DNA of 64,000 nucleotides from a virus: IMG/VR virus record IMGVR_UViG_3300022699_000302, positions 32,001 through 96,000 of that record; one strand, 5' to 3'. A program made the translations under genes and the position numbers. The notes beneath the pieces are model-generated. The model saw only the letters and a program-made list of their open reading frames with translations, did no database searches and was not told the DNA's origin. This document shows positions 6,061 to 58,364 of the stretch, one piece after another; positions within the stretch are counted from its first letter, which is position 1, and every line of letters begins with the position of its first letter.

Positions 6061-9000
6061 TGCCGAACAAGACCAAGTACTCGATGCGGCACCACGACTT
6101 CATCGTCTTTATCGATGGAGTCGAGATCCCCTGGCTCACCCTGCAGATGACTGCGGCTATGGGGCAGCCCTCGACTGTTGATATCTACATCGAGCCGGAT
6201 GACTTGATGGAACGGGTCAGGCCTAAAGCTCTTGTCCACGTCTTCATGTCTGATCCCTTCAGGAAGGCGGACGACGCAGATCCAGTCCCTGAAAACGAAG
6301 GGGATAGGCCTCAAAAATATTACCGCAAAAACTACTTCTTAGCTTTTGAGGGCGAGCTCCAGACCATTACGGAGACATGGACCGATAACAGCGCAGCTTT
6401 GGTTCTGGGTTGTTCGGACCTGACCAACATCATCCACAACACATCGCTCGATCTGGTTCAGTTGACTTCTGGCATCCGTATTCCCTTGATCAACGGTTCA
6501 ACGTTCTACGGGGACTTCCTGTCATTGTCCGGCACGAACTCAGCGATGAATGCTGTCATTTACGCTGCCATGGGATTTGACCCCGAAGAGGTCGCTAGTC
6601 AACAAGGCAAGACTGCTGAGGCAAAACTGGCGGCATCCCAGGCCATTCCCGTACTCAAAGACAAAATCTCCACAGACCCGGATGAGTACTACTACCACGA
6701 AGCGGTGCGCATTGCCCTGAAGTACTTTACTCAGTTCAATGCCTCGTACCGCTTGCAGGCGCTCCGTACTCGTTTGTTTGATAAGATCAGTGGGATCCCC
6801 GACCAGACTTTTCGTCGGCTTATGTCGGCTCGAGTAGCTCAAACGCTTATTACGAGTGGTTTCCAGAATGTGCCTAATCGATCATTGGGGCAGTTGTTGA
6901 ACTTCATGCTAAACATGGGGCTCCACCAGCCGACCTCTGTGTTCTTCCCGGTCAAGACAGGAGGAGAACGTAATGCTTGGTCGCAGTATCTGTTCCTTCC
7001 GAACTTGTACTATGCGATTCCGCCTTCTTGTAATTGGCTCTTCAAAGAGAATCTGACGACTATCAACTCTTCACGAGCATTCCTTCGGGAACCCACTCGT
7101 TTGATGGTTCGAGATCCCATGGTGGGCAACCTGGGACTTGTTCATATGGCCCCGCGCAGTTTGACCTCATTTCTGCAGTCAACTGGCAGTGGGGCTCCGG
7201 TGCCCCACACAGTTGATGGTGTACGTAGCCCGCTGACGTTTAATGCTGCGCGTACTGAAGAAGATTTCACTACAGACCCCAATATTAGGGGCGAAGCGGC
7301 CCTGGATCGGGCACCTTTCACGCTGAATCCTGATAGCGATGAGAGCGAATCTAACCCTAACCTTCTCAAGTACCTCACTCCCCTCGAGGTCGAGAAGGGC
7401 ATCCTTTTCCGTACATCAGATATGTCGATCGAGTACTTTGCCGGCAAAAGCACAGTACGCTCCGCATTTGGGGCCAGCGTGGACGCTGATGATGACGAGG
7501 AGCGACGTCAAGACCTGAATGCACAGGTCGAACGAGCCATTCAGAACGATGACTCGTATATCCGATACATGCAGAGTCTCGCGAATTACCGACTGAGCCT
7601 TGAGCAGCTGAATCGAGACATTAACGCTAACGGCCCCTTCAATCCGTGGGCGACCCCCGGCTTCCCCGCTATGATCTGTCGACCAGATCGCAGCTATCGA
7701 GGTTTGTTGACCAAGGTTACCCACACGATCTCGTCTACAGGAACAGCCCAAACCCTGTACGATTTTGCAGTTACTACCCTTTTCCGGCCTAAAACAGGCA
7801 CGCGTAACGAGATTGCTGATCAAAGACGTCTCGAGAATCAGCTTGACGAGGCCGAGGTAGAGCTGAACAGGGCTATTGAGGAATTCAATGAGTCCCTGGA
7901 TTTAGAGGTTGATGAAAGAGATATTTCTGATCTAGAAGAGATTGTCCGTAAGAGCGTCGAACCAACAGACCGAACGCCTTATATCGAAGAGATCAGTACT
8001 TTTCGGGATTGGCGAGGAGTCGAGATCAATCGTGGTTTATTGATGGCGTGGTATGCCATCAGGAAAGCTCGTGATGACCTTCGTGGAGAAGTGAATCTCA
8101 ACCCCCCTCTCGAGCGTCTTCGGCATATCGTGAACTTCGACATCGATCGGAGTCGAGACTATTTCAAACTGAGATCCGCTCCCGTACCGGAGTTGCAGAT
8201 CGTAGAGGGAGAGTCTACTACTGTCTATCGCGACGTTGATTTCACGCCTTTCTTGGACGATAAGTTGGAGGCTGGTCAAATAGCCTTGAATTACTCCCCC
8301 GAGGTATTCATTGGACCGGCAGGAGAGCGCGAGATCCAGCGAAACAACCAGAGACTGGAGTTAACGTATTGGAGTGGAGACTCTAAGGATGGTGATCCCG
8401 GTTCTGTGTCACTTCTGTTTGGCGAGGCGGTGCTTGACCCTAGCGGGTTAGCTAGCGATCTCAAACAGTTCCTCCAGGATATCCAAGCCAACTACGGTCG
8501 GGCTGTAGTCCGAGGAGAGTTTACTGACCTCCAAGTTTCTGGGTCTGATATTACGGTAGAGACTGAATCTGGGGGGACTCAAGTCATCTCGGATCTCGGC
8601 GGTGTTGTCGACTTTCTTCTTGACGATGCGTTAGCACGGCTTCAAGCCGGTCAGCAAGCTGCTAGGATCGCGAATATTAGAGAGCGCAAGCAGGCCCGCG
8701 ATACCGCTCAACTCAACCTGAGGGAGTCCCTGGGTCTTTTCGAAGAAGCTGTAGAGCAGCCCCCAGTGCCTGACTTTCTCAACACTAATTTGCTTGATCC
8801 CCTGAGCGTGGAGAAAGTGTATGAGCCTGTTCTCGGATCTAGCACTGCTCTGTCCCAGACTTTTGACTACTCCGGAGACAGTCCGCCCCCGCTTCTTCGC
8901 CGAAGCGACGGCTCTCTATCAGCTGCTACTCTTCAAGCCAGAGACGCGATCATCACCCTCGCTCTCCGAATTTATGATTTCAGCGAGGACATTAATCCCT

Positions 9001-44095: not shown

Positions 44096-44757
44096 CGCTT
44101 AATCCCCCAGTAAGTGTCGGTCAACTCTCCGATCGTATCGAAAAACTCATCGTCAGTGATCTTGTCGTCGTTCATCCTTTGATTGGCTTCTACGACCTTG
44201 CGTACCGCTACAGCGAGTTCGGTGTGTTTCCGGGCTTCTTTGGCGAACTCCCTTTCGATCTCTTGGTAGACCCCGTAGATCTGGCATCCCGCAATGATGT
44301 CGGGACTATCGTGCTTATAGAAGACCTGAACATAGGGGTTGAGCCATTTAGCCGTAGTAGGGCAGTCCTGCCAAAAGACCGTGATCATGTTGCCGGCGTC
44401 GCTGAAGACCCAGCCCGGTTTCCATTCGCGTTCCGGTGCTCTCTCTATCAAGTACTTGAGAGCATCCTCTGTGTCAGGGATGGAGTCGACGCCGAGGAGA
44501 AAGAGGATGTTCTCGATACGAGTCTCCCTCGTGTCGAAATGCCGATTAGCCCAGGTCAGAAGTAAGTCGTAGGCTTCCTGTTCTGTGATCGGTGTGCCCC
44601 GAATCATCCAAGTACTGCCGCTCTTAGTTCGGAACAAGCCGGAGCGCTTCGGCATCTTGTATTTAGATCGGAGCTCCTTGTACATCATCCCCAGGTCCCT
44701 TGCCTTTGGGATCTTTTTTCCGATCTCGTCCTTTTTGTAGTTCGGCGTATGATTCAT
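44092..44757 (-). CDS. Hypothetical protein
   Basis: 221-aa ORF. Confidence 0.7.
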   Translation of the reverse strand: MNHTPNYKKDEIGKKIPKARDLGMMYKELRSKYKMPKRSGLFRTKSGSTWMIRGTPITEQEAYDLLLTWANRHFDTRETRIENILFLLGVDSIPDTEDALKYLIERAPEREWKPGWVFSDAGNMITVFWQDCPTTAKWLNPYVQVFYKHDSPDIIAGCQIYGVYQEIEREFAKEARKHTELAVAVRKVVEANQRMNDDKITDDEFFDTIGELTDTYWGIKR

Positions 44758-45337
44758 GGGTCTCTCTCAATTCAGTCAATAAAGGGTCCAGTTCTTTTTT
44801 GTTAGTCTCCAGCTGTTTAACTAGTTCCCGCTCTCTGTGTCTTAGCCGTTCATAGGACTGGCGAGTGAATCGTCCTTGTTGGTGGTACTGAGTGATCTGA
44901 TTCAGGACTTTAATCAGCTCTTCCTGGAGAGTCATGTGCAGAGCAGCAGACCACACGAAATTTCGCCAGCACCTGATCTTACTTGCGGCTTCTTGGGCCA
45001 GGGTCCCGGGAGTATGCTCGCCTACGCAAACTCCGTCTTCTTCTGTTGCTCCAGGAAAAATTTCAGGATCATCTTTGTACCAAGGATACCCTAATACCGG
45101 TCCTAGCGACTGTTCAACATCGACGAGTTCTCGGTGATACGCTGTATCCAGTCGATCTGCTTCGCTCATCAGGTTTTCGATAAAGGAGGCGGATCTCTTT
45201 AGAGGATCTCGAAGATAAGGAAATTTTTTACTCAGAGAGTCTAGTATCTTGGGCAGTTCGAGATTGGACGGATCATTTCGAACGCTCTTCTTTTTCTCGT
45301 CGGTAGTCTCTGGGAATGAGGGCTTTTCGTTCGGCAT
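44663..45337 (-). CDS. Hypothetical protein
   Basis: 224-aa ORF overlapping both neighbours; boundaries uncertain. Confidence 0.55.
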   Translation of the reverse strand: MPNEKPSFPETTDEKKKSVRNDPSNLELPKILDSLSKKFPYLRDPLKRSASFIENLMSEADRLDTAYHRELVDVEQSLGPVLGYPWYKDDPEIFPGATEEDGVCVGEHTPGTLAQEAASKIRCWRNFVWSAALHMTLQEELIKVLNQITQYHQQGRFTRQSYERLRHRERELVKQLETNKKELDPLLTELRETHESYAELQKGRDRKKDPKGKGPGDDVQGAPI

Positions 45338-45758
45338 CTTCTTTCAACCTTTCTTTGATATCAGCCAAGCTTCTGAGTAATTTGAGTGTCCCTTCAGCAT
45401 GCCAGTCACGGACATCAGGAGAAGCGTATTTGAGATGATCAATGGCAGCCTCCAGCTCTTTGATATAGAGGTCACGCCACTTTATCTGCTGGCCAACAGG
45501 AGTAATAAGCAGTTCCGATACGGACTCCCAGTCGACCTCCCCTCTGGCCAGGCGTACACCACGATCGTGATTACACCGTTTATGGGTTAAGCGGATGTTC
45601 TCCAGCGTGTTATTGCCGCCGAAACTGCGGGGTAAGATATGGTCGATCGATGTGTCCTTCATCTTCATTTTCTCTCCGCAGATAGCACACCTACCGTTTT
45701 GTCGGAGGAACAGTTTCTGCTTTCGGCGCCGTGACGGCTTCTTACGTTCATTTACCAT
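45273..45758 (-). CDS. HNH endonuclease
   Basis: CAICG...SIDHILPRSFGGNNTLENIRLTHKRCNHDRG. Confidence 0.9.
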   Translation of the reverse strand: MVNERKKPSRRRKQKLFLRQNGRCAICGEKMKMKDTSIDHILPRSFGGNNTLENIRLTHKRCNHDRGVRLARGEVDWESVSELLITPVGQQIKWRDLYIKELEAAIDHLKYASPDVRDWHAEGTLKLLRSLADIKERLKEDAERKALIPRDYRREKEERSK

Positions 45759-46252
45759 GCATTCCCCAACCCATCCCAAGGGACCAAGCTGACGATCCAC
45801 TGACTCCTGCCACTTGAACTCATGGGGGCTTTATTGATGTGAGAGATTAGAAAGATGTCCTCGTTCCCTGAAGGTTTTTCAACAACTTTGGTGCTTCCGG
45901 TGACTATCGAGGGGGTCGTCTCCTTGAGAATCATACGGTCGCGTACACGGTAGTCTTCTGCGAAGAGGATAAGATATGAGCGATCGCCATTGATGATCTG
46001 CTGGTACTCTTCTGACTTGATCTTAAGGACATGCTCGACGGCCTGAAAGTCTCTCACGGTTCCTGATTTATCACAAGACGCACAGACGCAGCGATTCATA
46101 CGATTCCACTCTACGTCGCCGAAATCGGAAGTGCCGTCATCGAAGACGTCGAACATTGCAGTACCCTCGATTTTAAATTGTCGGTTGTTACCGCATTTCG
46201 GACAACGAAATCCCTCCAAGCAATTCGTGTTTCTTTCGGTTGAATCATTCAT
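45752..46252 (-). CDS. Zn ribbon fused to ASCH/DUF3850-like domain
   Basis: CPKCG...CASC, then HVLKIKSEEYQQIING..SY....DYRVRDRMILKE. Confidence 0.6.
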   Translation of the reverse strand: MNDSTERNTNCLEGFRCPKCGNNRQFKIEGTAMFDVFDDGTSDFGDVEWNRMNRCVCASCDKSGTVRDFQAVEHVLKIKSEEYQQIINGDRSYLILFAEDYRVRDRMILKETTPSIVTGSTKVVEKPSGNEDIFLISHINKAPMSSSGRSQWIVSLVPWDGLGNAW

Positions 46253-46274
46253 GTCATCTCCTGGTTTAGGGAGG

Positions 46275-46640
46275 CTAAGACGCGAAGCCTTTTTGGTAGA
46301 GCATGTGGTTCAGCCCCTTAGCTCTTAGGGCGGCCCTACATACCAGCTCTGGGGTAACTTCCGTGTTCGTGTTGTCCTGGACTGAAACGTGACGATCCTT
46401 CACAAAGACGACGTGAGCGTCGCGATAGCTATTGTGAAAAACCCGTCGGTCCCTCATTTCGAAGACGTAGCCGTCACGGCGCATCTTTTCGACAACTGAA
46501 AAAGCCGCGTCCCAGTTATCGATGTAATTTGGGACCCAGGGAATCCCTGGTTTATCCAGCTCGGTCAACTCCATTAGTTCTGTGGCTACGTAAAAGTTGA
46601 ACTGATCGCGTCGGCGTTTCTCATTCCTGTCGTCTGTCAT
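46275..46640 (-). CDS. Phage ABA-sandwich-like domain protein
   Basis: VPNYIDNWDAAFSVVEKM...PELVCRAAL. Confidence 0.55.
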   Translation of the reverse strand: MTDDRNEKRRRDQFNFYVATELMELTELDKPGIPWVPNYIDNWDAAFSVVEKMRRDGYVFEMRDRRVFHNSYRDAHVVFVKDRHVSVQDNTNTEVTPELVCRAALRAKGLNHMLYQKGFAS

Positions 46641-46845
46641 CGTCCCCTCCTTGAGGTATGCCCTCGTTCGCAAGGATGTAGGATACTGATACACAATCTC
46701 CGACCAGCCTTGTGTCGAATTGGGTTGTTTCAGCTTCGTCTTTGGCGGCGGCATCTGAGTGCGATACCCCAGTCCAGATACCTTGATCGAATCTTTCACC
46801 GGTTTCCAGGTTTTCAGCCCAGACTTGGATTGCATAGAATTTCAC
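46621..46845 (-). CDS. Hypothetical protein
   Basis: GAGAAGAGG RBS, GTG start. Confidence 0.6.
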   Translation of the reverse strand: MKFYAIQVWAENLETGERFDQGIWTGVSHSDAAAKDEAETTQFDTRLVGDCVSVSYILANEGIPQGGDDDRRQE

Positions 46846-46890
46846 CTCTTCTCCTTTTCGTGTAAATAAAAAGACAGGCCCGGAGGCCTG

Positions 46891-47220
46891 TCAGTTCTTG
46901 TAGATTTTCTCAAGATCTTCAGGAGAGAGGACATCAGGATCCTCTTTCCATTCTTCTGTACCGAAGATTCGGTACTCCGCGCAGATTTTCTTGCGGTGCT
47001 TCTCCAGCCACTCTAGCAACTGACCACAGGCCTCGACTCGTTGCTTGTAGTTCTCGAACTCTCGGAAGGTCAACCACGATCCTTCGGGATCGCCGTAGAA
47101 CCATACCCGGAGACCATCTTCGTCCACTGCTTTTATCACAGTGAACTGCGCATTCTCCGGTTCTCCTTTTGGAATGGCGGTCAACCTCCACAAGATGACC
47201 CGTAATTTCTTGATGTTCAT
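46891..47220 (-). CDS. Hypothetical protein
   Basis: AGGAGG RBS. Confidence 0.7.
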   Translation of the reverse strand: MNIKKLRVILWRLTAIPKGEPENAQFTVIKAVDEDGLRVWFYGDPEGSWLTFREFENYKQRVEACGQLLEWLEKHRKKICAEYRIFGTEEWKEDPDVLSPEDLEKIYKN

Positions 47221-47249
47221 ACCAACCTCCTGGAATAGTGTCTCTACAG

Positions 47250-47258
47250 TCTTAGGCC
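47250..47258 (-). promoter_or_regulatory. Putative early promoter motif GGCCTAAGA
   Basis: GGCCTAAGACTGTAGAG. Confidence 0.65.
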
Positions 47259-47298
47259 GCATATGAACTAAAAAGATAGGGCCCCGAAGGGCCCTATT

Positions 47299-47583
47299 CT
47301 AGTCTTTGTTCTGCTCGTACCTCTCAACTGCAGTACCAGCGGTACCGACGAGGGTACAGAGGCCCGCGATGATGGAAGCAGTCATCAGTAGAGCAAAGAC
47401 TACTTCGTGGGCGTTCTCGGCGCTCCAGCCTCCGCCTACCTGAGCGCCTTGCACCAGCCAGCCGCCGAAAAACCAAAGGGGAAAAATGCAACCGAGGCCC
47501 AGCCATCCCCCGATGGCCAGACGTAAGAAGACAGCTACGCGGCTGCGCCGCCGAAGCTGTCGAAGCTCTTCGTGCTCATTCAT
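47299..47583 (-). CDS. Membrane protein, 2 TM
   Basis: AAGGA RBS; two hydrophobic segments. Confidence 0.65.
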   Translation of the reverse strand: MNEHEELRQLRRRSRVAVFLRLAIGGWLGLGCIFPLWFFGGWLVQGAQVGGGWSAENAHEVVFALLMTASIIAGLCTLVGTAGTAVERYEQNKD

Positions 47584-47659
47584 GGGTTCCTTTCTCTCAA
47601 AGTAGAACAGGCTCCCCGAGGGGGCTAGGGAGCCTGTTCTGGTGGTGAGGTGAATGGGT

Positions 47660-47890
47660 TTAGTTGACGGGTTTGTCTTTGCCCTGCAGGTAGTCGCGGT
47701 TGACCTTCCAGAACTCCGCAAACTTCTCGGAGTCCCCGATCTTTTTCCCCAGCGACAGCGTCTCGTCCGGGGTCATTTTATTGGCCTTGTCTATCGCGGC
47801 CTCTACTTGATCGGCGGATTCGGGATCACCGTCGAACTCTAGCTCAACAGTGGTTTCCTCCGCAACTACAACTTGAATCTTTATGGGCAT
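47660..47890 (-). CDS. Small acidic protein directly downstream of array 1
   Basis: GAGG RBS abuts the last repeat. Confidence 0.65.
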   Translation of the reverse strand: MPIKIQVVVAEETTVELEFDGDPESADQVEAAIDKANKMTPDETLSLGKKIGDSEKFAEFWKVNRDYLQGKDKPVN

Positions 47891-47900
47891 AAGATTTCCT

Positions 47901-48518
47901 CGGTTCACTCGCGGTCGACGTTGCTGTCCGTGTGTACGGCTCACTCTGCGGCAGTGTTACAGTTGTTGACGACGATTCACTTCTACGGCACGGCGTGGCT
48001 CACCTCGTACGGTTCACTCTTTTTGTACGGAACAGTTCTACGTCCCGGTTCACTCCTAATGAAGCAGTTCCAGGTCTAGGCTCAATCCTGTGTAGTGGTA
48101 CAGTCGGTGACGACGTTTCGATCAGCGCTTGCGGTGTAATCCAGAGTTGACGGCTCATTCCGGGTGCTTGGTACATTCGGGCGGGACGATTCATTCAACG
48201 AATCGGTACAATTTCTTTCTGCGATTGCTTTTCCTCTGAGAAACAGTCAAAGCCTACGGCTCATTTCATCTAAACAAAGCTTTCGCCAATGTCGATTCAT
48301 TCTGTTCATGCGTAGCTATCTTTTGATGTGATTCATTCGAGGCAAGCGGTACAGTCTCTTATGACGAGTCATTCGACGCAAACACTACAGTCAAATATGC
48401 CGATTCATTCGTTTGTTTTGGAGCAGTTCCTCCTGCCGATTCGATTTGTTACTCCGGTACTGACGTGTGTTACGTCTCGGTCGCGCGGATCGAAACAGTT
48501 ACCTGCTTCGATTAAAGG
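47901..48518 (-). repeat. 36-nt dual-repeat/dual-spacer array 1 (TIGR-like), 17 units
   Basis: Unit starts on + at 47901, 47937, 47973, 48010, 48046, 48078, 48114, 48151, 48187, 48222, 48257, 48293, 48329, 48365, 48401, 48437, 48473, 48509. Minus-strand consensus GARTGARYCG-N8-RACTGTWCCR-N8. Confidence 0.85.
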
Positions 48519-48520
48519 TG

Positions 48521-48650
48521 ATCAGGGCGACAAGGTGGCGTAGAGATACTAGAGCTCTTCCAGTTGAGCTACGGCCGAAGCCGACGGGACTCGAACCCGC
48601 AACCTCTTCGTTATCAGCGAAATGTAATCCCTACAGGTATTCGCCCTGAT
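48521..48650 (-). ncRNA. yrlA: YrlA-type Y RNA (tRNA-like, T arm before D arm)
   Basis: 10-bp terminal stem ATCAGGGCGA/TCGCCCTGAT with CCTTG; T arm GCGGGTTCGAGTCCCGT; CGGC-TTCG-GCCG closed acceptor; D arm TAGCTCAACTGGAAGAGC. Confidence 0.85.
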
Positions 48651-48651
48651 T

Positions 48652-48816
48652 TTAAATCTCATCGAATTCAGTGAGTTGGTGCTGGTCACGCTCTTTCGGG
48701 CTCATATTATCCCAGCAGCTCTTACAGACCACCGGGTACCCATGAGAATCCTCAAAGCAGCTTCCGCAGCACGAGCATTGAAGGCCTTCGACGATATCGT
48801 CAGCAATCTCTCCCAT
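48652..48816 (-). CDS. Small Cys-rich (Zn-finger) protein, 54 aa
   Basis: MGEIADDIVEGLQCSCCG...HGYPVVCKSCW; not in the ORF track (<60 aa). Confidence 0.65.
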   Translation of the reverse strand: MGEIADDIVEGLQCSCCGSCFEDSHGYPVVCKSCWDNMSPKERDQHQLTEFDEI

Positions 48817-48846
48817 CACTTCTTCTTTGCGTGAGATAAAAAGAAG

Positions 48847-48949
48847 CCACCGACAGGTCGCGTCATAAGCCTATCCCCTCTCGTCATCGGCGGATTTCCA
48901 GGGAGACGTGACTACAGGGAGCTTCGTACCCAAGATGGGCTGTCGGTGG
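48847..48949 (-). ncRNA. Unknown structured RNA E
   Basis: Perfect 10-bp terminal stem CCACCGACAG/CTGTCGGTGG. Confidence 0.6.
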
Positions 48950-48975
48950 TGCCACTCCTCAAGCGGCAAAACAGA

Positions 48976-49113
48976 GAGAGTAACTGGGGGAAGGCTACTA
49001 TTCCCGGGGAAAGGCGGTCGCGACAGGTCAAACCTTTCCGTCTTCTTGTGTGACTTCAACCCTTCGTGCATCACACTCAGACGCCCTCGTTGTTTTGAAC
49101 ACCAGTTACTCTC
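48976..49113 (-). ncRNA. Unknown structured RNA D
   Basis: Perfect 12-bp terminal stem GAGAGTAACTGG/CCAGTTACTCTC with internal hairpins. Confidence 0.65.
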
Positions 49114-49121
49114 AAAAGGCT

Positions 49122-49230
49122 AGCAGCAGGCGCGGGTCGTCCGTCTTTCTAAAGCGCCCCCGAGCGCGGGATCTGCGCCGGCGCCGGGCCGAGGTTTAGG
49201 TGCCTCGGTAGCCACCATGTTCCTGCTGCT
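49122..49230 (-). ncRNA. Unknown structured RNA C
   Basis: 9-bp terminal stem AGCAGCAGG/CCTGCTGCT; GC-rich internal hairpins. Confidence 0.6.
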
Positions 49231-49243
49231 GTAAGGAAGGTCA

Positions 49244-49371
49244 GGGAGTAGGGTGTATACTGTGCCGTTCGGACTATAATCCTACCCACCTCTCGGCTTC
49301 GACGTGTATTTCAACACGCTAGGCCAGCCACCCATCGGCTATTTGCCTCTAGGCCACACTCGCCTACTCCC
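49244..49371 (-). ncRNA. Unknown structured RNA B
   Basis: 9-bp terminal stem GGGAGTAGG/CCTACTCCC with internal hairpins. Confidence 0.6.
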
Positions 49372-49381
49372 ATAAAACCAT

Positions 49382-49494
49382 GCGCGGAGAAACTACTGGC
49401 CGGCAGTGGGTCCAAACCCGAAAGCCTATCCCGACTCAGCAGGGTGTGCCATCGAAGGCAGCAGATTCCTAAAGGTCTGCCACTCTCCCCGCGC
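49382..49494 (-). ncRNA. Unknown structured RNA A
   Basis: 11-bp terminal stem GCGCGGGGAGA/TTTCTCCGCGC whose mismatches are G-U pairs only on the minus strand; starts ~15 nt after the promoter motif. Confidence 0.65.
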
Positions 49495-49509
49495 GAAAAG
49501 TGTCTACTG

Positions 49510-49518
49510 TCTTAGGCC
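49510..49518 (-). promoter_or_regulatory. Putative early promoter motif GGCCTAAGA driving the ncRNA cluster
   Basis: GGCCTAAGACAGTAGA. Confidence 0.65.
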
Positions 49519-49538
49519 GAACTCGGCCGGGAAAATGG

Positions 49539-49682
49539 TGCGGTGACAAGGTGTTGGAGAGATATTTACGCGCTCTATCCACTGAGCTACCCCACCACTT
49601 AGCTATGGTGGTGGGGGTGAGGAATCGAACCTCACGACCTCGTCCTTATGATGGAATGTAATCCCTCACGGCATTCACCGCA
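49539..49682 (-). ncRNA. yrlA: YrlA-type Y RNA (tRNA-like, T arm before D arm)
   Basis: Terminal stem TGCGGTGA/TCACCGCA with CCTTG; T arm GTGAGGTTCGATTCCTCAC; closed acceptor CCCCACCA..TGGTGGGG; D arm TAGCTCAGTGGATAGAGC; adjacent to Ro60. Confidence 0.87.
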
Positions 49683-50010
49683 TTTTCGTTTCGCGTCTCA
49701 GGCACAATCGGCTGCTACGACTCGTTCTTCATGTGCGCTACAGACGATATAGGCAACTCATTCAGACACTACGAGACCGTCTAGTTTGACGATTCGCTCG
49801 GTTGGTTCGAGACGCTCTAGAGATCCAGCTCGTTCTTCATGCACGTTGTGGTCATTTGAAGTGACTCACTCATTGACTACGGAGCCTGCGTTCAGCACGG
49901 TTCATTTTGCATCGGAGGATACGGTCGTCTGTGACGATTCAATGTTGGCGGACCGACAAGGTTGTGTGGAGTCACGGTTCATTTCCAGTAATGATGTAGA
50001 CCCCTACGGC
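49682..50010 (-). repeat. 36-nt dual-repeat array 2 (TIGR-like), ~9 units
   Basis: Unit starts on + at 49682, 49718, 49754, 49790, 49826, 49862, 49898 (36 apart), then 49935 and 49975; same two motifs as array 1. Confidence 0.78.
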
Positions 50011-50020
50011 ATTCGGTCCA

Positions 50021-50043
50021 TTGGTTGCGTCGGATGAAACCAA
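50021..50043. repeat. 23-bp palindromic element, copy 7
   Basis: TTGGTTGCGTCGGATGAAACCAA. Confidence 0.75.
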
Positions 50044-50072
50044 GTTGTCAAAGAAGCCACAAGAGGGCCCGG

Positions 50073-51686
50073 TTATACCAGGCCCTTCTTGATGGCGTCA
50101 ACCCAGTGATTCGTGCCCCCTCTGTCTTCCAGGAAGGTTGAGATGGCGTCGAACACTGAGTCATTGAACCCCCCAACATTCAGAACGTCGGGACGATTCA
50201 CGACCTGTGTGGTCGGGTGGGGCTGAAGGTCGATTAAGACCAACTTGGCATCGGGTCGGTCGGCTCGCTTTTTCCACTCATCCCAGTAATACTGCAGACC
50301 AGTACGATTCTTGGTGTAGTGGCGTGCAGGATCATTGGAGAAGTCCGCCCAGGACTCCATGTCCGAGAGAATGACAACAGCATCGAGATCGAATATCTTG
50401 TTGTCGATCAAGTACTGGATCGCCGAACTACAATCAGTCCCCCCGCCGGAACGTGCCAGCTGATTTACCAGGGTAAAAATGGAGTCACGGTCGGTAACCG
50501 ACGCGAGTTTCGCTGCAGTATCAAATTGGACGACCTTTGCGTCGGGCTGGGAGTGAAGGATGCATGCTGCCATGAGCGCTGCAACCTCACAGCATCGCAC
50601 GTCCCGGGCACCGGCACGCCTCCAGCCTCCCCGGGTGGTGGCCTTACCGACTGCGAGAGCTTGCATCGAGTACGACACGTCCACGCAAACAGCTGCCTTT
50701 CCGAAACGGGGCACGTTATCGATCGAGATCTCGACCGTATCGTGCAAGGCATTTTTGATCTTGGTCGGAATGCCTTCATTGAGGTGGCGGTAGGTCTGGT
50801 AGAGCTGGTACGGGAAGATCCGCTGCTTCTTGATTTGCTCCACATCGGTCAGCTGTTCGACTGCATACTCGACGAATCCCGTATCCTTGAGCACTTCATG
50901 GCGCTCCAGGGTATTGAGGTTCATCCGAAGAGCATGAAGTCCCATCTGGTGCCCCAAGACCTTCCAGTCCCGGGTCGAGAGATCGGGGATCGAAGTCAGG
51001 AGGCGAAACTCGATGCCCTTGGGCTTGCGGTTGCGATACCCCGCCTTCCATTCCTCGAAAACCTTCGCTACTTCGGGGAGCAGCTCCTCGTTGTAGTTGC
51101 GCCCGATCAGGTATGCATACAGGTTTGAGCGGGCTTGATCCGAGGGCTTGGGATGGATCATGTGAATGATGTCAGCGATCGACGGATCGTTACCAACTGA
51201 ATCCCTGAACAGAGCGGCGGGATGACGCTTGTTCAACCAGTGCTCGATCAGCTTCTTCAGCCAGGTGCCGAAGCTTTTTCGACCGAACCGCCCCGAACGA
51301 ATGAATTGCGCGAAGTTGCGGAGCATCCTCCCGTTATCGATCACATGCGGGAATGCCTCGTTGAACTTAACACGGTCGACTCCGGTCTGACTTGCCGCGA
51401 ACGCCATGAGAGCGGCCGGCATATCCTTCATCCACGCTTTCTTGCGCGAGTACACCGCGACATCGATGACGAAGTTCGGGTCGACCTTGCGCGCAGCCTC
51501 CAGGAGGGTCTCGAGCTGCTTCTCGCCGGTGGCGTAGAACGTGTTGTAAAAAGTACCGGTACACGCGTATTGTGCCAAGAGCTCTTCCGGATCGAGCTTC
51601 ATAGCGGCGCCTCCAGCCTCGTTGACCGTATGCTTGACCTCGATCTCGTGGGCCTTGGCTGACTTGAACATTTTCTTGTTCGCCAT
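50073..51686 (-). CDS. rsr: Ro60/TROVE-vWA RNA-binding protein
   Basis: NEAGGAA..L.P...LAQYACTGTF.NTFYA...VYSR...MKDMPA TROVE motifs; vWA MIDAS DVSYS, GGGTDCS, LSDMESW, LIDLQP..GGFNDSVF. Confidence 0.93.
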   Translation of the reverse strand: MANKKMFKSAKAHEIEVKHTVNEAGGAAMKLDPEELLAQYACTGTFYNTFYATGEKQLETLLEAARKVDPNFVIDVAVYSRKKAWMKDMPAALMAFAASQTGVDRVKFNEAFPHVIDNGRMLRNFAQFIRSGRFGRKSFGTWLKKLIEHWLNKRHPAALFRDSVGNDPSIADIIHMIHPKPSDQARSNLYAYLIGRNYNEELLPEVAKVFEEWKAGYRNRKPKGIEFRLLTSIPDLSTRDWKVLGHQMGLHALRMNLNTLERHEVLKDTGFVEYAVEQLTDVEQIKKQRIFPYQLYQTYRHLNEGIPTKIKNALHDTVEISIDNVPRFGKAAVCVDVSYSMQALAVGKATTRGGWRRAGARDVRCCEVAALMAACILHSQPDAKVVQFDTAAKLASVTDRDSIFTLVNQLARSGGGTDCSSAIQYLIDNKIFDLDAVVILSDMESWADFSNDPARHYTKNRTGLQYYWDEWKKRADRPDAKLVLIDLQPHPTTQVVNRPDVLNVGGFNDSVFDAISTFLEDRGGTNHWVDAIKKGLV

Positions 51687-51730
51687 TTGGGTCTCCTGTT
51701 CCCAACAAAAAAGAAAGCAGTATTGCTCTA

Positions 51731-51739
51731 CCTTAGGCC
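51731..51739 (-). promoter_or_regulatory. Putative early promoter motif (GGCCTAAGG) upstream of Ro60
   Basis: GGCCTAAGGTAGAG. Confidence 0.55.
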
Positions 51740-51761
51740 AGATCACCAACGAAATCTGGGT

Positions 51762-52223
51762 TCATGTCCTGAGTTTGAGCTCGACAAAAGTATGCAGATC
51801 CCACCACGGCACTAATCCCTCAGCAGACCATAACAACACGGGGAGCGGGTGCGGGTCATCGCCGTCAGCGAAATCGTCCTTTATTGCGCGGATGCCGCTA
51901 ACCTCGACAGAGTTGGTAGACATGTTTTTTGGAGGATGCCCTACGTGAAGGATGGGGGGAGATTCATTTCCGTACCTCTTGTAATAGATCAGTGAAGGAG
52001 GTTCTTTGGAAAAGCGGACTTTCCTCCAAAAGCAAGTAAACATGAATCGAAATCCCTCTGCAGCCTTCTCTTCCTGCATGTTTCGGATTTCACTTAGAGG
52101 GACTAAGCGGTCGGTTTTATTCCCGTAATAGAGCCGGATGTGCGGGCGATAGACAAGATGTTCCATCCGAGAGGCTGGTCTCTTCTTCTTCTTTAGATAC
52201 ATCTCTACTGTCGTTTCCGTCAT
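51762..52223 (-). CDS. WW-motif family protein
   Basis: Ends PWWDLHTFVEL. Confidence 0.72.
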   Translation of the reverse strand: MTETTVEMYLKKKKRPASRMEHLVYRPHIRLYYGNKTDRLVPLSEIRNMQEEKAAEGFRFMFTCFWRKVRFSKEPPSLIYYKRYGNESPPILHVGHPPKNMSTNSVEVSGIRAIKDDFADGDDPHPLPVLLWSAEGLVPWWDLHTFVELKLRT

Positions 52224-52227
52224 TTCG

Positions 52228-53613
52228 TCATCTCCAGTTCCTTGCCTCCTGTGCTTCGAGATCCCACTTGCGATTCAATGCGACTTGGATACAGATCTCT
52301 TGAAAGCTGGCCGGCGTGATTTCTTGGTGGCGTTGGGCTAATTCCTTAATCTCGTCGGAATGGCCGAGGTCTCCTATGATCCGTTCAGCCATAGTCAGAC
52401 GTCCTTCATATCCAAGATTTCCGAGCTCGACTACGCGGTCGACACGTCCAGGCCGTGAACCAACTTCATCGGTGGAACCTCCGCCCAGAGCCGGATCCAA
52501 AACATCGAGGCGATTAGTAGTGATGAACAAAAGAGTGCCGTCGGTTCGGTCGACACCATCGATCAGGTTGAGGAGGCAGTCGAAAGTCACACCCTGAACG
52601 TCGTTCGGAGCTGCGATGTTCTTCCGACCTTCGAACACACCATCGATGTCCTCAATAAGGATGATGCGCCGGCGGTAGAGCTGGCATCTTAAGCTCCATG
52701 CCTTGCTCAGATACTGGTTGTCCATTGATGCCAAATCGAAGATATAGATTGGGAGGTCGAAGTTCTGACCGACAGCTCGTACAAAACTGGACTTGCCGGT
52801 ACCCGGTTTTCCGTGAAAGACGTAACCACGCCTCCAAGGGATGCTGCGCTCCTGGTACCATTCGCGATGATCCAGCCAGAATTGAATTTCTTGCAGGATA
52901 CGCTTTTGATCGGATCCCAGAATCAGAGATTTGAAGGCGTCAGATCCTTGATTCTCGCCAATATCATCCCAGTCAAATCCTAATGCCAGATTGGATCTGA
53001 GACTCATATCGGCACCGCCTGAACCGCTTCTCGCTAGAGACGGAGACTCTCCTTCGGCGGAAGCATTCTCACCTTTACGTAGATTTCCGATGACGTATTC
53101 GACGAAGAAGTCTGTCGACTCTGCCTCTTCCCTTTTCTTGCGCTCTTCTCGTTGCTTATTCAGTATCCTCAAACCTTGATTGATGAAGTGATAGTAGGGG
53201 AAGCTCCATCGGACAAAGCGGACCATCGTGGGATGTGAGATTCTCTGGCCTTCCTTTGGTTCCTCTTTTGATGGCTCAAACCAGACCGGACGAAAATTGA
53301 CCCAGAAGATGTTGGAGTGCTTGTTCAAGTTTTCGAAAGCGACATGCTGCCAATCACCTTTAGACTTGAGGAAAGCAAGGAAGGCAGTGAATGAGCGAAT
53401 ACCTAGCTTTCGGCGGCGTCCTCGGGATCCGAGATATTTCTGGATCGCCATGCTGAGCTCGTGATCATTGATTTGCTGGGGGACGACGATGAAAGAGAAC
53501 ATCTTGATCAGGAACTGACGACTCTTGTTCCATGCAGTGGCGGCATAACCAAGAACGAGAATTCCGGTTGCCCCAATGGCAGCCTCGAGACCGCCGATAG
53601 CAGGTAGTTCCAC
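52228..53613 (-). CDS. BCS1-like AAA+ ATPase with N-terminal TM
   Basis: WY.ER.IPWRRGYVFHGKPGTGKSS (Walker A), IILIEDID (Walker B), LLNLIDG, ITTN....LDPAL..RPGRVD. Confidence 0.9.
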   Translation of the reverse strand: MELPAIGGLEAAIGATGILVLGYAATAWNKSRQFLIKMFSFIVVPQQINDHELSMAIQKYLGSRGRRRKLGIRSFTAFLAFLKSKGDWQHVAFENLNKHSNIFWVNFRPVWFEPSKEEPKEGQRISHPTMVRFVRWSFPYYHFINQGLRILNKQREERKKREEAESTDFFVEYVIGNLRKGENASAEGESPSLARSGSGGADMSLRSNLALGFDWDDIGENQGSDAFKSLILGSDQKRILQEIQFWLDHREWYQERSIPWRRGYVFHGKPGTGKSSFVRAVGQNFDLPIYIFDLASMDNQYLSKAWSLRCQLYRRRIILIEDIDGVFEGRKNIAAPNDVQGVTFDCLLNLIDGVDRTDGTLLFITTNRLDVLDPALGGGSTDEVGSRPGRVDRVVELGNLGYEGRLTMAERIIGDLGHSDEIKELAQRHQEITPASFQEICIQVALNRKWDLEAQEARNWR

Positions 53614-56762: not shown

Positions 56763-58364
56763 TTAGGAGGAGCCCTTCTTTTGTTTCTTCTTCCACGGAT
56801 CTTTCAGTGGCACAACTTCGACTAAGTCGATACGGGTACCTACGATACAGACTTTGTAGTATCCTTTTCGCATGAGCTGCACGATCTGCCCGTGTTGGAG
56901 GTCAAGAGGCTCCATAAAGGCTATTGGGAGCTCTTTCATGCTGTCCTCATTGAACTCTCCGTTTTCGTCGAACAGGGGACCCAACTGGTAGATGTTGACC
57001 GGTCGAGCTCCTACGGAGACCCAATGGATCGTGCCTTTGACTTTTTCTTCCGGAAGGAGCTCACACTCGATACCGGTTAGATCCTCGTCCACCTGGAACG
57101 GTCCTACGTGCTTCAGGATACCGGCACCCTTGATCCGGACCTTACCTCCAGGCTTCAACCGTTTGAACTTCGGTGGCGGGTCCCCGGAGAAGTCATCCTT
57201 CTCGATCATGATGAAGTTGTCAACGAGAACCTTCCGAGTCCCGGCTTCGGGATCTTCGGGGTTGTTCTCGATCTCGACATACTCGCCGGCGGGCGATGAC
57301 AGATTGGAGATCCGAACCGATAACGGGTCGAAGACGCACATCACTCGCTGGGATGTCTTGTTGTAGCGGTCCCGGGCGATGTTCTCGAGCTTGTTCGGTG
57401 CGATCACCGAGTGGGTCTTGGACACCCCGATCTCTTCACAGAAGTCCTGGAGCATCTCGGGGGTATACCCCCGATTGCGGAGACCACGGAGAGTAGGCAT
57501 GCGGGGATCGTCCCATCCGTCGACCCTCTTGTCGTAGACCAGTTTACGGAGCTTGCGCTTTGAAAGCACCACTCCATCGACTTCGCATCTTGCGAATTCA
57601 CGCTGTTTTGGGAGGTAGTGGGTGTCGTAAACGGCATCATCGAATTCGGCGTGTTTGAGGAACCAGTTGTAGAGTTGGCGGTGCTCTTCGAATTCGAGAG
57701 TGCAGAGTGAGTGGGTGATCCTCTCGAGATAATCGACCAGAGGATGGCTGAAGTCGTAGCTGGGGTAGATGCAGTACTCAGCGCCGGTGCGGTGGTGAGG
57801 AGTGTAGATGATGCGGTACATCACAGGATCCCGCATCAGAGCACTGGGGTGCTTCCAGTCGATCTTGGCCCTGAGGGTGCACTCACCACCCTTGTAGATC
57901 CCCTTGAACATGTTGTCCCAACGGGCCAGGTTCTCAGAGATCGTGCGGTCGCGATAAGGGCTGGGCTTGAGCTCCTTGTTCGAGTCGCGGTAGTCGGCAG
58001 CATCTCGCGGCGAGAGATCACAGACATAAGCATCACCGCACTCCACCATCTTTCGAGCAACAGTTAGGAGATCCGGAAAGTAGTCCGAGGTGTAGGTGAC
58101 CTCGGGTTTGAATCGTAGTAGCCACGACAGATCTTCAATGATGGCCTTCTCATAGATCGGGGATTCGGTCAAAGGGTTGGTATCATCGAATCTGAGGTGG
58201 CATTTGCCCATGTACTGGGCGGCGATGCCGAAGTTGAGACACGCTGCTTTAGCATGCCCTAGATGCAGGTATCCGTTGGGTTCTGGCGGGAACCGAGTTC
58301 GCACCTCGGAGTACCGCCTTTCTTCGAGGTCCTTATCGATCTCGAGGGTGATGAAGTTCTTCAT
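56763..58364 (-). CDS. glnS: Glutaminyl-tRNA synthetase
   Basis: RTRFPPEPNGYLHLGHAK (HIGH), LRFDDTNP, YPSYDF.H..VD..E.ITHSLCTLEF, VLSKRKL (KMSKS equivalent), GWDDPRMPTLRG, KVKGTIHWVS. Confidence 0.95.
   Translation of the reverse strand: MKNFITLEIDKDLEERRYSEVRTRFPPEPNGYLHLGHAKAACLNFGIAAQYMGKCHLRFDDTNPLTESPIYEKAIIEDLSWLLRFKPEVTYTSDYFPDLLTVARKMVECGDAYVCDLSPRDAADYRDSNKELKPSPYRDRTISENLARWDNMFKGIYKGGECTLRAKIDWKHPSALMRDPVMYRIIYTPHHRTGAEYCIYPSYDFSHPLVDYLERITHSLCTLEFEEHRQLYNWFLKHAEFDDAVYDTHYLPKQREFARCEVDGVVLSKRKLRKLVYDKRVDGWDDPRMPTLRGLRNRGYTPEMLQDFCEEIGVSKTHSVIAPNKLENIARDRYNKTSQRVMCVFDPLSVRISNLSSPAGEYVEIENNPEDPEAGTRKVLVDNFIMIEKDDFSGDPPPKFKRLKPGGKVRIKGAGILKHVGPFQVDEDLTGIECELLPEEKVKGTIHWVSVGARPVNIYQLGPLFDENGEFNEDSMKELPIAFMEPLDLQHGQIVQLMRKGYYKVCIVGTRIDLVEVVPLKDPWKKKQKKGSS

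What the first reader, a model, noticed from the sequence alone, without database searches (positions are those of the whole stretch)
47901..48518. 17-unit, 36-nt dual-repeat/dual-spacer array (TIGR-like) with no Tas gene nearby
Seen: 12 of 17 unit intervals are exactly 36 nt (others 37, 32, 37, 35, 35). Each unit has two related motifs, GARTGARYCG and RACTGTWCCR on the minus strand, both fitting RA.TG..YCR and giving an 18-nt sub-period. They are separated by two unique 8-9 nt segments. The most plausible reading frame has stops and indels. Established: 36-nt units with two alternating short repeats and two ~9-nt spacers describe TIGR arrays, not CRISPR. Inference: a tandem-spacer guide array whose effector acts in trans or is not a canonical Tas. 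The repeats are more degenerate than I would expect of a young active array.
Basis: partly seen in the sequence, partly recalled or inferred. Interest (0 to 1): 0.88.

Follow-up and report, generated by a model that had tools for sequence, protein, structure and literature searches.

The report
Detached TIGR guide array, distant TasA
This is a real array of about 17 tiny guide RNAs of the recently described TIGR-Tas system. It only looks orphan because the phage's single, nuclease-free Tas protein gene lies about 23 kb away, and the guides sit unusually inside a Ro60/Y-RNA locus.

Summary
Window 47901-48518 (minus strand) has 17 units: twelve of 36 nt, two of 35, two of 37 and one of 32. Each unit is a 10-nt edge repeat GARTGARYCG, 8 nt, a 10-nt loop repeat RACTGTWCCR, then 8 nt. 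Periodicity at 36 and 18 nt is 8.0 and 7.2 SD above dinucleotide shuffles.

It is a dual-repeat TIGR array. The geometry is the 10-8-10-8 of the Salicola phage SpTIGR array. The window lies in a complete 194-kb phage. That phage encodes one Tas protein, which scores 163.5 bits on NCBIfam TIGR_Tas_endo (cut-off 100). The gene is at genome 103577-104632, 7.6 kb past the window end and about 23 kb from the array, on the same strand. It has no nuclease domain (TasA type) and keeps the Tyr/His pre-tigRNA processing dyad.

Among 80 relatives of this Tas, 67 carry a same-strand array, at a median of 8 nt from tas. Their consensus is GAG[CT]GA[GA]CC[AG]-8-GAGAGTACC[AG]-8, the repeat family seen here. 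The degeneracy here falls on positions that also vary across that family.

A second, more decayed array lies at 49692-50023. Both arrays abut YrlA-type Y RNAs beside a Ro60 gene.

No targets were found and expression could not be tested. The system is known; the layout is unusual. This scan has already noted detached TIGR arrays in other phage genomes.

The parts
47901..48518 (-). TIGR array 1: 17 units of about 36 nt plus a terminal edge repeat. Each unit is edge GARTGARYCG, 8-nt spacer A, loop RACTGTWCCR, 8-nt spacer B. It begins with a 5'-degenerate edge 3 nt after YrlA-1 and ends with an intact edge at 47910-47901.
   Evidence: Unit layout. Periodicity z = 8.0 at lag 36 and 7.2 at lag 18. 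25 of 35 repeat slots keep all five family-invariant positions. Nine of the genome's ten triple-slot matches fall here, all on the minus strand, against 0.02 expected (my estimate); the tenth is in array 2.
49692..50023 (-). TIGR array 2: about 9 more degenerate units of the same motif and period. It starts about 50 nt after the Ro60 stop codon and ends about 10 nt before YrlA-2.
   Evidence: Second-highest place in the genome in a motif x 18-nt period scan (54.6 against a background maximum of about 20), and not part of the training set. Layout. Only 7 of 18 slots are fully intact. One triple-slot match.
48521..48647 (-). YrlA-like Y RNA 1: a Ro-binding stem plus a tRNA-like module. Its 3' end lies 3 nt before array 1.
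   Evidence: Rfam RF02553, full-length match, 56.1 bits (gathering score 69), E = 2.4e-11. 10-bp closing stem, (I9).
49537..49681 (-). YrlA-like Y RNA 2, directly after array 2.
   Evidence: Rfam RF02553, full-length match, 44.6 bits, E = 5.1e-08.
50073..51689 (-). Ro60/Rsr homologue (TROVE plus vWA domains), upstream of array 2 on the same strand.
   Evidence: Pfam vWA_Ro60 E = 2.8e-11 and TROVE E = 4.4e-06. NCBIfam Rsr E = 9.7e-17 (60.6 bits, below the equivalog cut-off of 900). PHROG 850 E = 2.6e-40.
47660..47890 (-). 76-aa ORF of unknown function. Its AGGA ribosome-binding site begins immediately after the last edge repeat, so it is probably on the same transcript as array 1.
   Evidence: ORF list. 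Sequence, (unit 18). No Pfam, NCBIfam or PHROG match.
47605..47640 (-). Hairpin of about 11 bp after the 76-aa ORF; a candidate end of the YrlA-1/array 1 transcript. It has no clear T tract.
   Evidence: Read directly from the sequence. Not called by the terminator scan.
48652..48819 (-). 55-aa Cys-rich (CxxC ... CxxC) ORF just upstream of YrlA-1.
   Evidence: Only weak family matches.

Best explanation
Window 47901-48518 (minus strand) is a dual-repeat TIGR array. [quoted passage not shown]

Its partner is the phage's only Tas protein, a 351-aa nuclease-free TasA. The gene is at genome 103577-104632 on the same strand, about 23 kb upstream in the direction of transcription and 7.6 kb outside the window. 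That gene has no array of its own.

Inferred mechanism, by homology to characterised TIGR-Tas systems:
- The array is transcribed, probably together with the adjoining Y RNA and the downstream 76-aa ORF.
- TasA dimers bind the edge and loop repeats through the conserved A2, G5 and C9 anchor positions.
- TasA cuts the precursor inside the edge repeats with its retained Tyr/His dyad, releasing 36-nt tigRNAs.
- The two 8-nt spacers then pair with opposite strands of a 16-bp DNA site.
- With no nuclease domain, the complex most likely blocks transcription or replication rather than cutting. The targets, in the host or in a competing element, are unidentified.

A second, more decayed array (49692-50023) belongs to the same system.

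Shown here: the array architecture, the repeat-family match, the Tas gene, its fold and its processing residues. Inferred: transcription, processing, loading in trans and repression.
For: 1. Architecture: the 10-8-10-8 = 36-nt unit has the same geometry as the validated SpTIGR array of Salicola phage CGphi29, which I read as a positive control (L001 15353-15750). It also fits the published definition (PMC12045711).

2. Effector gene: NCBIfam NF052498 TIGR_Tas_endo matches G000:C1:103706-104518(-) at 163.5 bits (cut-off 100, E = 4.5e-49), in an intact 351-aa ORF. The SpTasH protein finds the same ORF. PDB sequence hits are TasH (E = 6.8e-06) and TaTasR 9MTY (E = 8.9e-05).

3. Effector fold: the AlphaFold model (pLDDT 89.6) is almost entirely helical. 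Its ten best PDB matches are all TasH or TasR chains bound to tigRNA (probability 1.00, E = 5e-06 to 6e-04).

4. Effector type: Pfam finds no HNH or RuvC domain. Residues Y322 and H331 align with the SpTasH processing residues Y289 and H296 (their role is from PMC13421893).

5. Relatives: of 80 phage loci encoding relatives of this Tas (35-47% identity), 67 have an array with the family motif. All 67 are on the tas strand, 62 lie within 500 nt of tas, and the median distance is 8 nt. Their consensus units are GAG[CT]GA[GA]CC[AG]-8-GAGAGTACC[AG]-8. L012 has GAGTGAACCA and L049 has GAATGAATCA, the two edge variants seen here apart from the last base, which is G here and A there; G occurs there in L054-type arrays.

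6. Pattern of degeneracy: per-position conservation within array 1 tracks cross-array invariance in the family (Spearman rho = 0.71, p = 4e-4). The variation falls on positions 3, 4, 7 and 8, which the family also varies.

7. Specificity: a training-independent motif, [GA]A..G...C[AG] at an 18-nt period, picks out only arrays 1 and 2 in the whole 194-kb genome, on the minus strand only.

8. Need for these guides: the genome is complete (direct terminal repeats, 100% by CheckV) and has no other array. An intact tas therefore has no other guide source.
Against: - The array is about 23 kb from tas, whereas in relatives the median distance is 8 nt.
- The repeats are more degenerate than in most relatives. 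The loop repeat carries about 0.6 bit per position against about 1.1 in the family, five of 17 units are off-length, and array 2 keeps only 39% of its slots intact. Part or all of the arrays could be decaying.
- The loop repeat has CT at positions 3-4 where the family mostly has GA.
- Expression and processing into 36-nt RNAs were not observed.
- No sigma-70-like promoter or canonical terminator was found on the minus strand.
- No target was found for any guide.
Confidence: 0.85

Rival explanations
1. Relic arrays. These are genuine TIGR arrays by descent, but they were displaced from tas and are now decaying and no longer make working guides.
For: Off-length units of 32, 35 and 37 nt and degenerate loop repeats. 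Array 2 keeps only 7 of 18 slots intact, below nearly all 67 arrays in relatives. The arrays are 23 kb from tas. No targets were found.
Against: Degeneracy in array 1 is concentrated on positions the family tolerates; the invariant positions are kept (rho = 0.71, p = 4e-4). Its 71% of intact slots is within the range of tas-adjacent arrays. Seven units are fully canonical with exact 8-nt spacers. The tas gene is intact, keeps all 33 family-invariant residues and the Tyr/His dyad, and has no other guide source in a complete genome.
Confidence: 0.12
2. The arrays belong functionally to the Ro60/Y-RNA module, not to Tas. For example, they could be Ro60 substrates, decoys, or guides for a Ro60-tethered nuclease.
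For: Both arrays abut YrlA-like RNAs within 3-10 nt, downstream of Ro60, inside a 2.3-kb stretch with no ORF of 90 aa or more.
Against: The repeat motif is the one found next to tas in 67 relatives that have no Y RNA beside the array. YrlA-like matches occur in only 6 of 50 tas-bearing phage records, and in the four of those records I located the array in (L056, L071, L073; none found in G018) it does not adjoin the YrlA. No tRNA adjoins arrays in 60 relatives. No RNA-guided role is known for Ro60 (PMC4201824).
Confidence: 0.03
3. It is a degenerate protein-coding 12-aa tandem repeat, or a chance periodicity.
For: 36 nt is a multiple of three.
Against: No frame is open across the array; the longest ORF is 72 aa, and the 32-, 35- and 37-nt units shift the frame. 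The 18-nt sub-period with two distinct repeat types and variable 8-nt spacers is not a codon pattern. z = 8 against shuffles. The motif is strand-specific and matches the TIGR family.
Confidence: 0.01

Closest known systems
Dual-repeat TIGR-TasA systems (e.g. Flavonifractor plautii FpTIGR-TasA, Faure et al. 2025, PMC12045711; TasA as an RNA-guided repressor, bioRxiv 10.64898/2026.09.09.750476)
   Same: 36-nt units with alternating edge and loop repeats and two short spacers. A solo Nop-domain Tas without a nuclease. Array and tas on the same strand. The Tyr/His processing dyad typical of dual-repeat systems. A phage host.
   Different: Published arrays lie upstream of, downstream of, flanking or inside tas. 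Here tas has no array beside it, and both arrays lie 22-23 kb away with about 30 ORFs of 90 aa or more between them. They are embedded in a Ro60/Y-RNA locus. The repeats are more degenerate than usual. Spacers are 8 nt, as in SpTIGR, not the 9 nt of FpTIGR.
SpTIGR-TasH of Salicola phage CGphi29 (NC_020844; PDB 9W03)
   Same: Identical 10-8-10-8 unit geometry giving a 16-nt combined guide. Edge and loop repeats share the A2, G5 and C9 anchors and a purine at position 10 (R10). The Nop domains are homologous (hhalign probability 96.9%). Same Tyr/His dyad.
   Different: SpTasH carries an N-terminal HNH nuclease and cuts DNA, and its array starts about 30 nt after tasH. The Tas here has no nuclease domain and has two insertions in the Nop domain.
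'Arrayless' tas loci noted by Xu et al. 2026 (bioRxiv 10.64898/2026.09.09.750476, Discussion)
   Same: A tas gene packed among coding genes with no intergenic room for an array.
   Different: That branch comprises compact TasR proteins, and its guide source is unknown. Here the effector is TasA, and a guide source of the matching repeat family is identified elsewhere in the same genome.
Orphan or remote CRISPR arrays served in trans by cas genes elsewhere
   Same: Guide arrays physically separated from the effector genes that use them.
   Different: A different system: 10-nt dual repeats and split 8-nt spacers that pair with both DNA strands, a Nop-domain effector, and no PAM or adaptation genes.
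Bacterial and phage Ro60 (Rsr)-YrlA Y RNA modules (Chen et al. 2014, PMC4201824)
   Same: The flanking RNAs match YrlA over its full length and lie next to a Ro60 homologue. This is the neighbourhood, not the array itself.
   Different: No TIGR-like array has been described within a Ro60/Y-RNA locus. The YrlA matches here fall below Rfam's gathering score.

Membership tests
Dual-repeat TIGR array (TIGR-Tas) | [quoted passage not shown] | tested here: met
   17 units, 12 of them exactly 36 nt, laid out 10-8-10-8. Lag-36 and lag-18 periodicity z = 8.0 and 7.2.
Dual-repeat TIGR array (TIGR-Tas) | Two distinct alternating 8-12-nt repeats separated by 8-12-nt variable spacers | tested here: met
   Edge GARTGARYCG and loop RACTGTWCCR, both 10 nt, with 8-nt spacers carrying little information. 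Definition from PMC12045711.
Dual-repeat TIGR array (TIGR-Tas) | Edge and loop repeats share the same anchor (box C/D-type) positions, and these covary between the two repeats | tested here: met
   A2, G5 and C9 are the best-kept positions in both repeats. In the family, the last base of edge and loop covaries: A/A in 39 arrays, G/G in 9, mixed in 2. This array is of the G type in its edge repeats, while its loop repeats mix G and A.
Dual-repeat TIGR array (TIGR-Tas) | Repeat sequence matches the arrays used by relatives of the associated Tas | tested here: met
   Consensus of 50 arrays next to relatives of this Tas: G1, A2, A6 and C9 are the majority base in 50 of 50, and G5 in 49 of 50. Both edge variants here also occur in relatives apart from the last base (L012, L049). 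Conservation profiles correlate, rho = 0.71.
Dual-repeat TIGR array (TIGR-Tas) | A Tas (Nop-domain) protein is encoded by the same element | tested here: met
   NF052498 at 163.5 bits against a cut-off of 100. Fold matches TasH and TasR. Pfam Nop PF01798 misses it, but also misses the validated SpTasH.
Dual-repeat TIGR array (TIGR-Tas) | Array lies next to, or inside, the tas gene | tested here: not met
   tas is at genome 103577-104632 and the arrays at 79901-80518 and 81692-82023, so 22-23 kb apart. No motif cluster or 36-nt periodicity occurs near tas. In relatives the median distance is 8 nt, though L021 has an array 9.3 kb away.
Dual-repeat TIGR array (TIGR-Tas) | Array on the same strand as tas | tested here: met
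   Both are on the minus strand, as in 67 of 67 relatives.
Dual-repeat TIGR array (TIGR-Tas) | [quoted passage not shown] | tested here: inconclusive
   The first edge is degenerate in its 5' half (CCTTTAATCG) and the last repeat is an intact edge. However, a 76-aa ORF intervenes before the only hairpin (47605-47640), which has no T tract.
Dual-repeat TIGR array (TIGR-Tas) | Transcribed and processed into 36-nt tigRNAs bound by Tas | not testable with these tools
   No sequencing run was listed for this stretch. Indirect support only: the Tas keeps the Tyr/His processing dyad.
Dual-repeat TIGR array (TIGR-Tas) | Paired spacers match DNA targets on both strands | tested here: inconclusive
   No match with 0-1 mismatch in the phage's own genome, and two 2-mismatch matches against roughly five expected by chance on my estimate. 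No match with up to 1 mismatch in 1.3 Mb of other tas-bearing phage loci. The host is unknown.
TasA (nuclease-free Tas) | Nop domain with a coiled-coil arm and no HNH or RuvC domain | tested here: met
   Pfam finds only the IS110-type C-terminal domain. The model is almost entirely helical (H16-348) with no beta-rich domain. The 95 N-terminal residues are long helices.
CRISPR array | One 25-36-nt repeat alternating with spacers of similar length | tested here: not met
   Two different 10-nt repeats and 8-nt spacers.
Protein-coding tandem repeat | An open reading frame through the repeats | tested here: not met
   No ORF longer than 72 aa in any frame, and the 32-, 35- and 37-nt units shift the frame.

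The most novel reading that the evidence does not exclude
The placement is functional. Both arrays are fused end-to-end with tRNA-like Y RNAs in a Ro60 operon, so tigRNA production would be coupled to the Ro60/Y-RNA machinery. One possibility is that the Y RNA's tRNA-like module recruits RNase P or RNase Z to define the ends of the precursor. Another is that Ro60/Y-RNA-tethered exonuclease trims or protects the precursor. Either would link two RNA-protein systems never before connected.
Probability: 0.06. Interest if true: 0.8.

Novelty: new variant of a known kind. Interest (0 to 1): 0.42.

Why it matters
TIGR-Tas was described in 2025, and its arrays are annotated by looking around tas genes. 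The 2026 TIGRFinder survey found arrays for 6,685 of 20,096 tas loci and left open whether some tas genes are 'arrayless'.

This locus is a clean case in a complete phage genome. An intact TasA has no array beside it, and its only possible guides, of the matching repeat family, lie 23 kb away. That shows that:
- guide loading in trans is the expected mode here;
- surveys centred on tas will miss such arrays;
- 'orphan' 36-nt arrays should prompt a genome-wide search for tas with a Tas-specific profile, because Pfam Nop misses both this Tas and SpTasH.

The pattern of degeneracy also gives a natural mutational map of which repeat positions TasA needs (A2, G5, C9 and a purine at position 10).

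The Ro60/Y-RNA neighbourhood is a curiosity worth one experiment. The system itself is not new, and this scan has already noted similar detached arrays in other large phages.

Tried and rejected
- Pfam Nop (PF01798) six-frame search of the genome found nothing. I rejected this as evidence of absence because the same model also misses the validated SpTasH. NCBIfam NF052498 found the gene.
- Blastn of 44500-52000 against 50,697 phage records gave no match.
- Single-protein scans for close relatives of Tas and of Ro60 in viral contigs, and of Ro60 in metagenome contigs, found none. No orthologous Ro60-YrlA-array locus could therefore be compared, and spacer turnover could not be assessed.
The contigs of the closest Tas relatives (P0002 at 86% and P0003 at 50% identity) could not be read.
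- Sequencing runs: none was listed, and no RNA holder was listed.
- Target search, with spacer A joined to the reverse complement of spacer B in both orders, for 26 guides. The own genome gave no hit at 0-1 mismatch and two hits at 2 mismatches, no more than my estimate of roughly five expected by chance. The 1.3 Mb of other tas-bearing phage loci gave no hit at up to 1 mismatch, against 0-3 in shuffled-spacer controls.
- Searching large public collections for 16-mers was not attempted. About 280 chance matches per guide are expected in 596 Gb, and the host is unknown.
- Sigma-70 promoter and intrinsic terminator scan found nothing on the minus strand of the locus.
- ARAGORN finds no tRNA in the window. 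The tRNA-like stretch at 48581-48636 is part of YrlA-1.
- TasParB partner: no ParB-like domain in the ORFs flanking tas.
- tRNA or Y RNA next to arrays as a family trait: not seen in 60 and 50 relatives respectively.
- The 36-nt periodic peak at genome 1536 is an acidic low-complexity coding stretch, not an array.

Full report
**Where the window lies.** The window is bases 32001-96000 of a 194,114-bp IMG/VR phage record. The record has direct terminal repeats and is rated 100% complete. It shows no nucleotide similarity to 50,697 deposited phage genomes.

**The observation.** I read the stretch on the minus strand from 48518 down to 47901.
- Each unit is a 10-nt repeat of the type GARTGARYCG, 8 variable bases, a 10-nt repeat of the type RACTGTWCCR, then 8 variable bases.
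- An 18th copy of the first repeat closes the array at 47910-47901.
- Base identity is 0.397 at lag 36 and 0.385 at lag 18, against 0.255 +/- 0.018 in 1000 dinucleotide shuffles. That gives z = 8.0 and 7.2, and neighbouring lags are at background.
- No reading frame is open across the region, and the off-length units shift the frame.

**What kind of array it is.** Faure et al. (PMC12045711) define dual-repeat TIGR arrays. These have two alternating 8-12-nt repeats (edge and loop) separated by spacers of about 9 nt. [quoted passage not shown]

As a positive control I fetched Salicola phage CGphi29 (NC_020844; the accession is confirmed in PMC13421893). Its validated array reads AAGCGAGCCA-8-AAGACAACCA-8 just downstream of tasH. 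This is the same 10-8-10-8 geometry as here.

**Finding the effector.** Pfam's Nop model found nothing in the genome. It also fails on SpTasH, so that blank means little.
- NCBIfam has a dedicated model, NF052498 (TIGR_Tas_endo), which SpTasH hits at 118.9 bits.
- Searched over the whole phage in six frames, NF052498 gives a single match of 163.5 bits (cut-off 100, E = 4.5e-49) at G000:C1:103706-104518, minus strand. The match lies inside an intact 351-aa ORF at 103577-104632. SpTasH itself finds the same ORF.
- That ORF is 7.6 kb beyond the window's end and about 23 kb from array 1, on the same strand.
- It sits in a mostly leftward gene block: 33 of 43 ORFs of 90 aa or more between genome 74 and 108 kb are on the minus strand.
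- The protein's PDB sequence hits are TasH and TaTasR.
- Its AlphaFold model (pLDDT 89.6, almost entirely helical) has TasH and TasR chains bound to tigRNA as its ten best structural matches.
- Pfam sees only the IS110-type C-terminal domain and no HNH or RuvC, so it is a TasA.
- A profile alignment to SpTasH places its Y322 and H331 on Y289 and H296. Those are the residues shown to cleave pre-tigRNA in dual-repeat systems (PMC13421893; bioRxiv 10.64898/2026.09.09.750476).

**Tying the array to this Tas.** The protein has 1716 homologues at E <= 1e-5. A profile of 40 of them (A1) retrieved 80 phage loci encoding relatives at 35-47% identity.
- A motif taken only from the family, [GA]A..G...C[AG] at an 18-nt period, finds an array in 67 of the 80 loci. 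The array is always on the tas strand, lies within 500 nt of tas in 62, and has a median distance of 8 nt.
- Their consensus units are GAG[CT]GA[GA]CC[AG]-8-GAGAGTACC[AG]-8. L012 has the edge GAGTGAACCA and L049 has GAATGAATCA, which are the two edge variants of array 1 apart from the last base. That base is G here, as in L054-type arrays.
- Across 50 well-resolved family arrays, the edge positions G1, A2, A6 and C9 are the majority base in 50 of 50 arrays and G5 in 49 of 50. Positions 3, 4, 7 and 8 vary.
- Array 1 shows the same profile within itself: high information at positions 1, 2, 5, 6, 9 and 10 and low at 3, 7 and 8. Over the 20 repeat positions, Spearman rho = 0.71, p = 4e-4.
- The last base of edge and loop covaries in the family: A/A in 39 arrays, G/G in 9, mixed in 2. 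Array 1 is of the G type in its edge repeats, while its loop repeats mix G and A.

So the 'degeneracy' is largely variation where the family tolerates it.
- 25 of 35 repeat slots (71%) keep all five invariant positions. The median is 82% (range 19-100%) in tas-adjacent arrays.
- Seven units are fully canonical with exact 8-nt spacers.

**Other arrays in the genome.** Three consecutive motif slots at exact spacing occur ten times in the 194 kb, against about 0.02 expected on my estimate. All ten are on the minus strand, nine in array 1 and one at 49772-49817.
- That second place is array 2 (about 49692-50023, roughly 9 units).
- It also ranks second in a motif x period scan although it was not used for training: 54.6 against a background maximum of about 20.
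- It is clearly more decayed, with 7 of 18 slots intact.
- Nothing resembling an array lies near tas, whose flanks are tightly packed with ORFs.

**The neighbourhood.** On the minus strand the order is:
- Ro60/Rsr homologue, 51689-50073;
- array 2;
- YrlA-like Y RNA, 49681-49537 (E = 5e-08);
- about 700 nt without ORFs;
- a 55-aa Cys-rich ORF;
- YrlA-like Y RNA, 48647-48521 (E = 2e-11; family described in PMC4201824);
- array 1, starting 3 nt after that Y RNA;
- a 76-aa ORF whose AGGA ribosome-binding site begins right after the last edge repeat;
- a hairpin at 47640-47605.

Both arrays therefore abut a tRNA-like Y RNA. This is not a family habit. YrlA-like matches occur in 6 of 50 tas-bearing phage records. 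In the three of those records where I located the array (L056, L071, L073) it sits next to tas and kilobases from the YrlA, and in a fourth (G018) I found no array. In addition, 60 relatives have no tRNA beside the array. I therefore treat the adjacency as lineage-specific, possibly just an island of non-coding RNA genes. A functional coupling to Ro60 gets a low probability.

**How it most likely works (inferred by homology).**
- The array is transcribed leftward, probably with YrlA-1 and the 76-aa ORF.
- TasA dimers bind the edge and loop repeats.
- The Tyr/His dyad cuts inside the edge repeats to release 36-nt tigRNAs.
- The two 8-nt spacers pair with opposite strands of a 16-bp site.
- Lacking a nuclease, TasA most likely acts as a guide-dependent repressor or roadblock, as shown for MbTasA.

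Targets remain unknown. Joining spacer A with the reverse complement of spacer B in both orders gave no match with up to 1 mismatch in the phage itself, and only two 2-mismatch matches, no more than my chance estimate of roughly five. It gave no match in 1.3 Mb of other tas-bearing phages. The host is unidentified, and 16-mers are too short for open database searches. Expression could not be examined.

**Comparison and novelty.** This is a member of the dual-repeat TIGR-TasA kind in every feature I could test except one: adjacency of array and tas. Published descriptions place arrays upstream of, downstream of, flanking or within tas, and the authors leave open how 'arrayless' tas loci get their guides.

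Here a complete genome shows an intact TasA whose only guide source is 22-23 kb away. One relative in my set has its array 9.3 kb away (L021). Another complete 58-kb phage (G018) has tas but no detectable array at all.

Earlier notes of this scan, read only after I had located tas independently, reach the same reading for this genome's tas gene. They also report detached arrays in several other large phages. Those notes are unchecked leads, but they suggest the layout recurs.

I rate this a layout variant of a known system. It is useful for annotation and for the 'arrayless tas' question. The Ro60/Y-RNA context is a curiosity, and the mechanism is not new.

Noticed in passing
window 48521-48647 (-), 49537-49681 (-), 50073-51689 (-): A phage Ro60/Rsr homologue with two full-length YrlA-like Y RNAs (E = 2e-11 and 5e-08, both below Rfam's gathering score). 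An AAA ATPase gene lies just upstream at 52228-53613 (-).
   Followed up: partly
window 48830-49536 (-): About 700 nt with no ORF of 90 aa or more and no Rfam match, between YrlA-2 and the Cys-rich ORF. It may hold further non-coding RNAs.
   Followed up: no
window 48840-48850 and 50050-50060 (-): The exact 11-mer GTGGCTTCTTT occurs twice. One copy lies just upstream of array 2. The other lies just upstream of the Cys-rich ORF that precedes YrlA-1 and array 1. It could be part of a phage promoter or terminator. With one mismatch allowed, the count is not above chance.
   Followed up: partly
window 47946-48410 (-): Array 1's edge repeats fall into two groups: GAATGAATCG in units 4-10 and GAGTGAACCG in units 14-18. 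This suggests two blocks of different ancestry or a duplication history.
   Followed up: no
window 45273-45800 (-): A free-standing HNH endonuclease gene lies about 2 kb downstream of array 1 (Pfam HNH_5, E = 4e-11). It is probably an ordinary phage homing-type nuclease, and no link to TasA was tested.
   Followed up: no
window 56763-58364 (-): A phage-encoded class I Glu/Gln-tRNA synthetase (Pfam tRNA-synt_1c, E = 4e-90).
   Followed up: no
L002:2348-3205 (+) = genome 105066-107456: A long ORF (796 aa in the ORF call) divergent from tas, with a LigD 3'-phosphoesterase domain and a ligase-like KxDG motif: a nucleic-acid repair gene next to tas. The two small ORFs after tas (L002:511-846 and L002:221-514) look like paralogues of each other.
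   Followed up: no
L025, L091, L093, L094 (record G018, 58,393 bp, direct terminal repeats, 100% complete): This complete phage encodes a relative of the Tas but has no 36-nt periodic array and no family-motif cluster anywhere in its genome: a candidate truly arrayless tas. It also has a YrlA-like match at 7094-7202.
   Followed up: partly
L021:20274-20908 (+): This relative's TIGR array lies 9.3 kb downstream of tas, a second example of a detached array within my sample of 80 loci.
   Followed up: no
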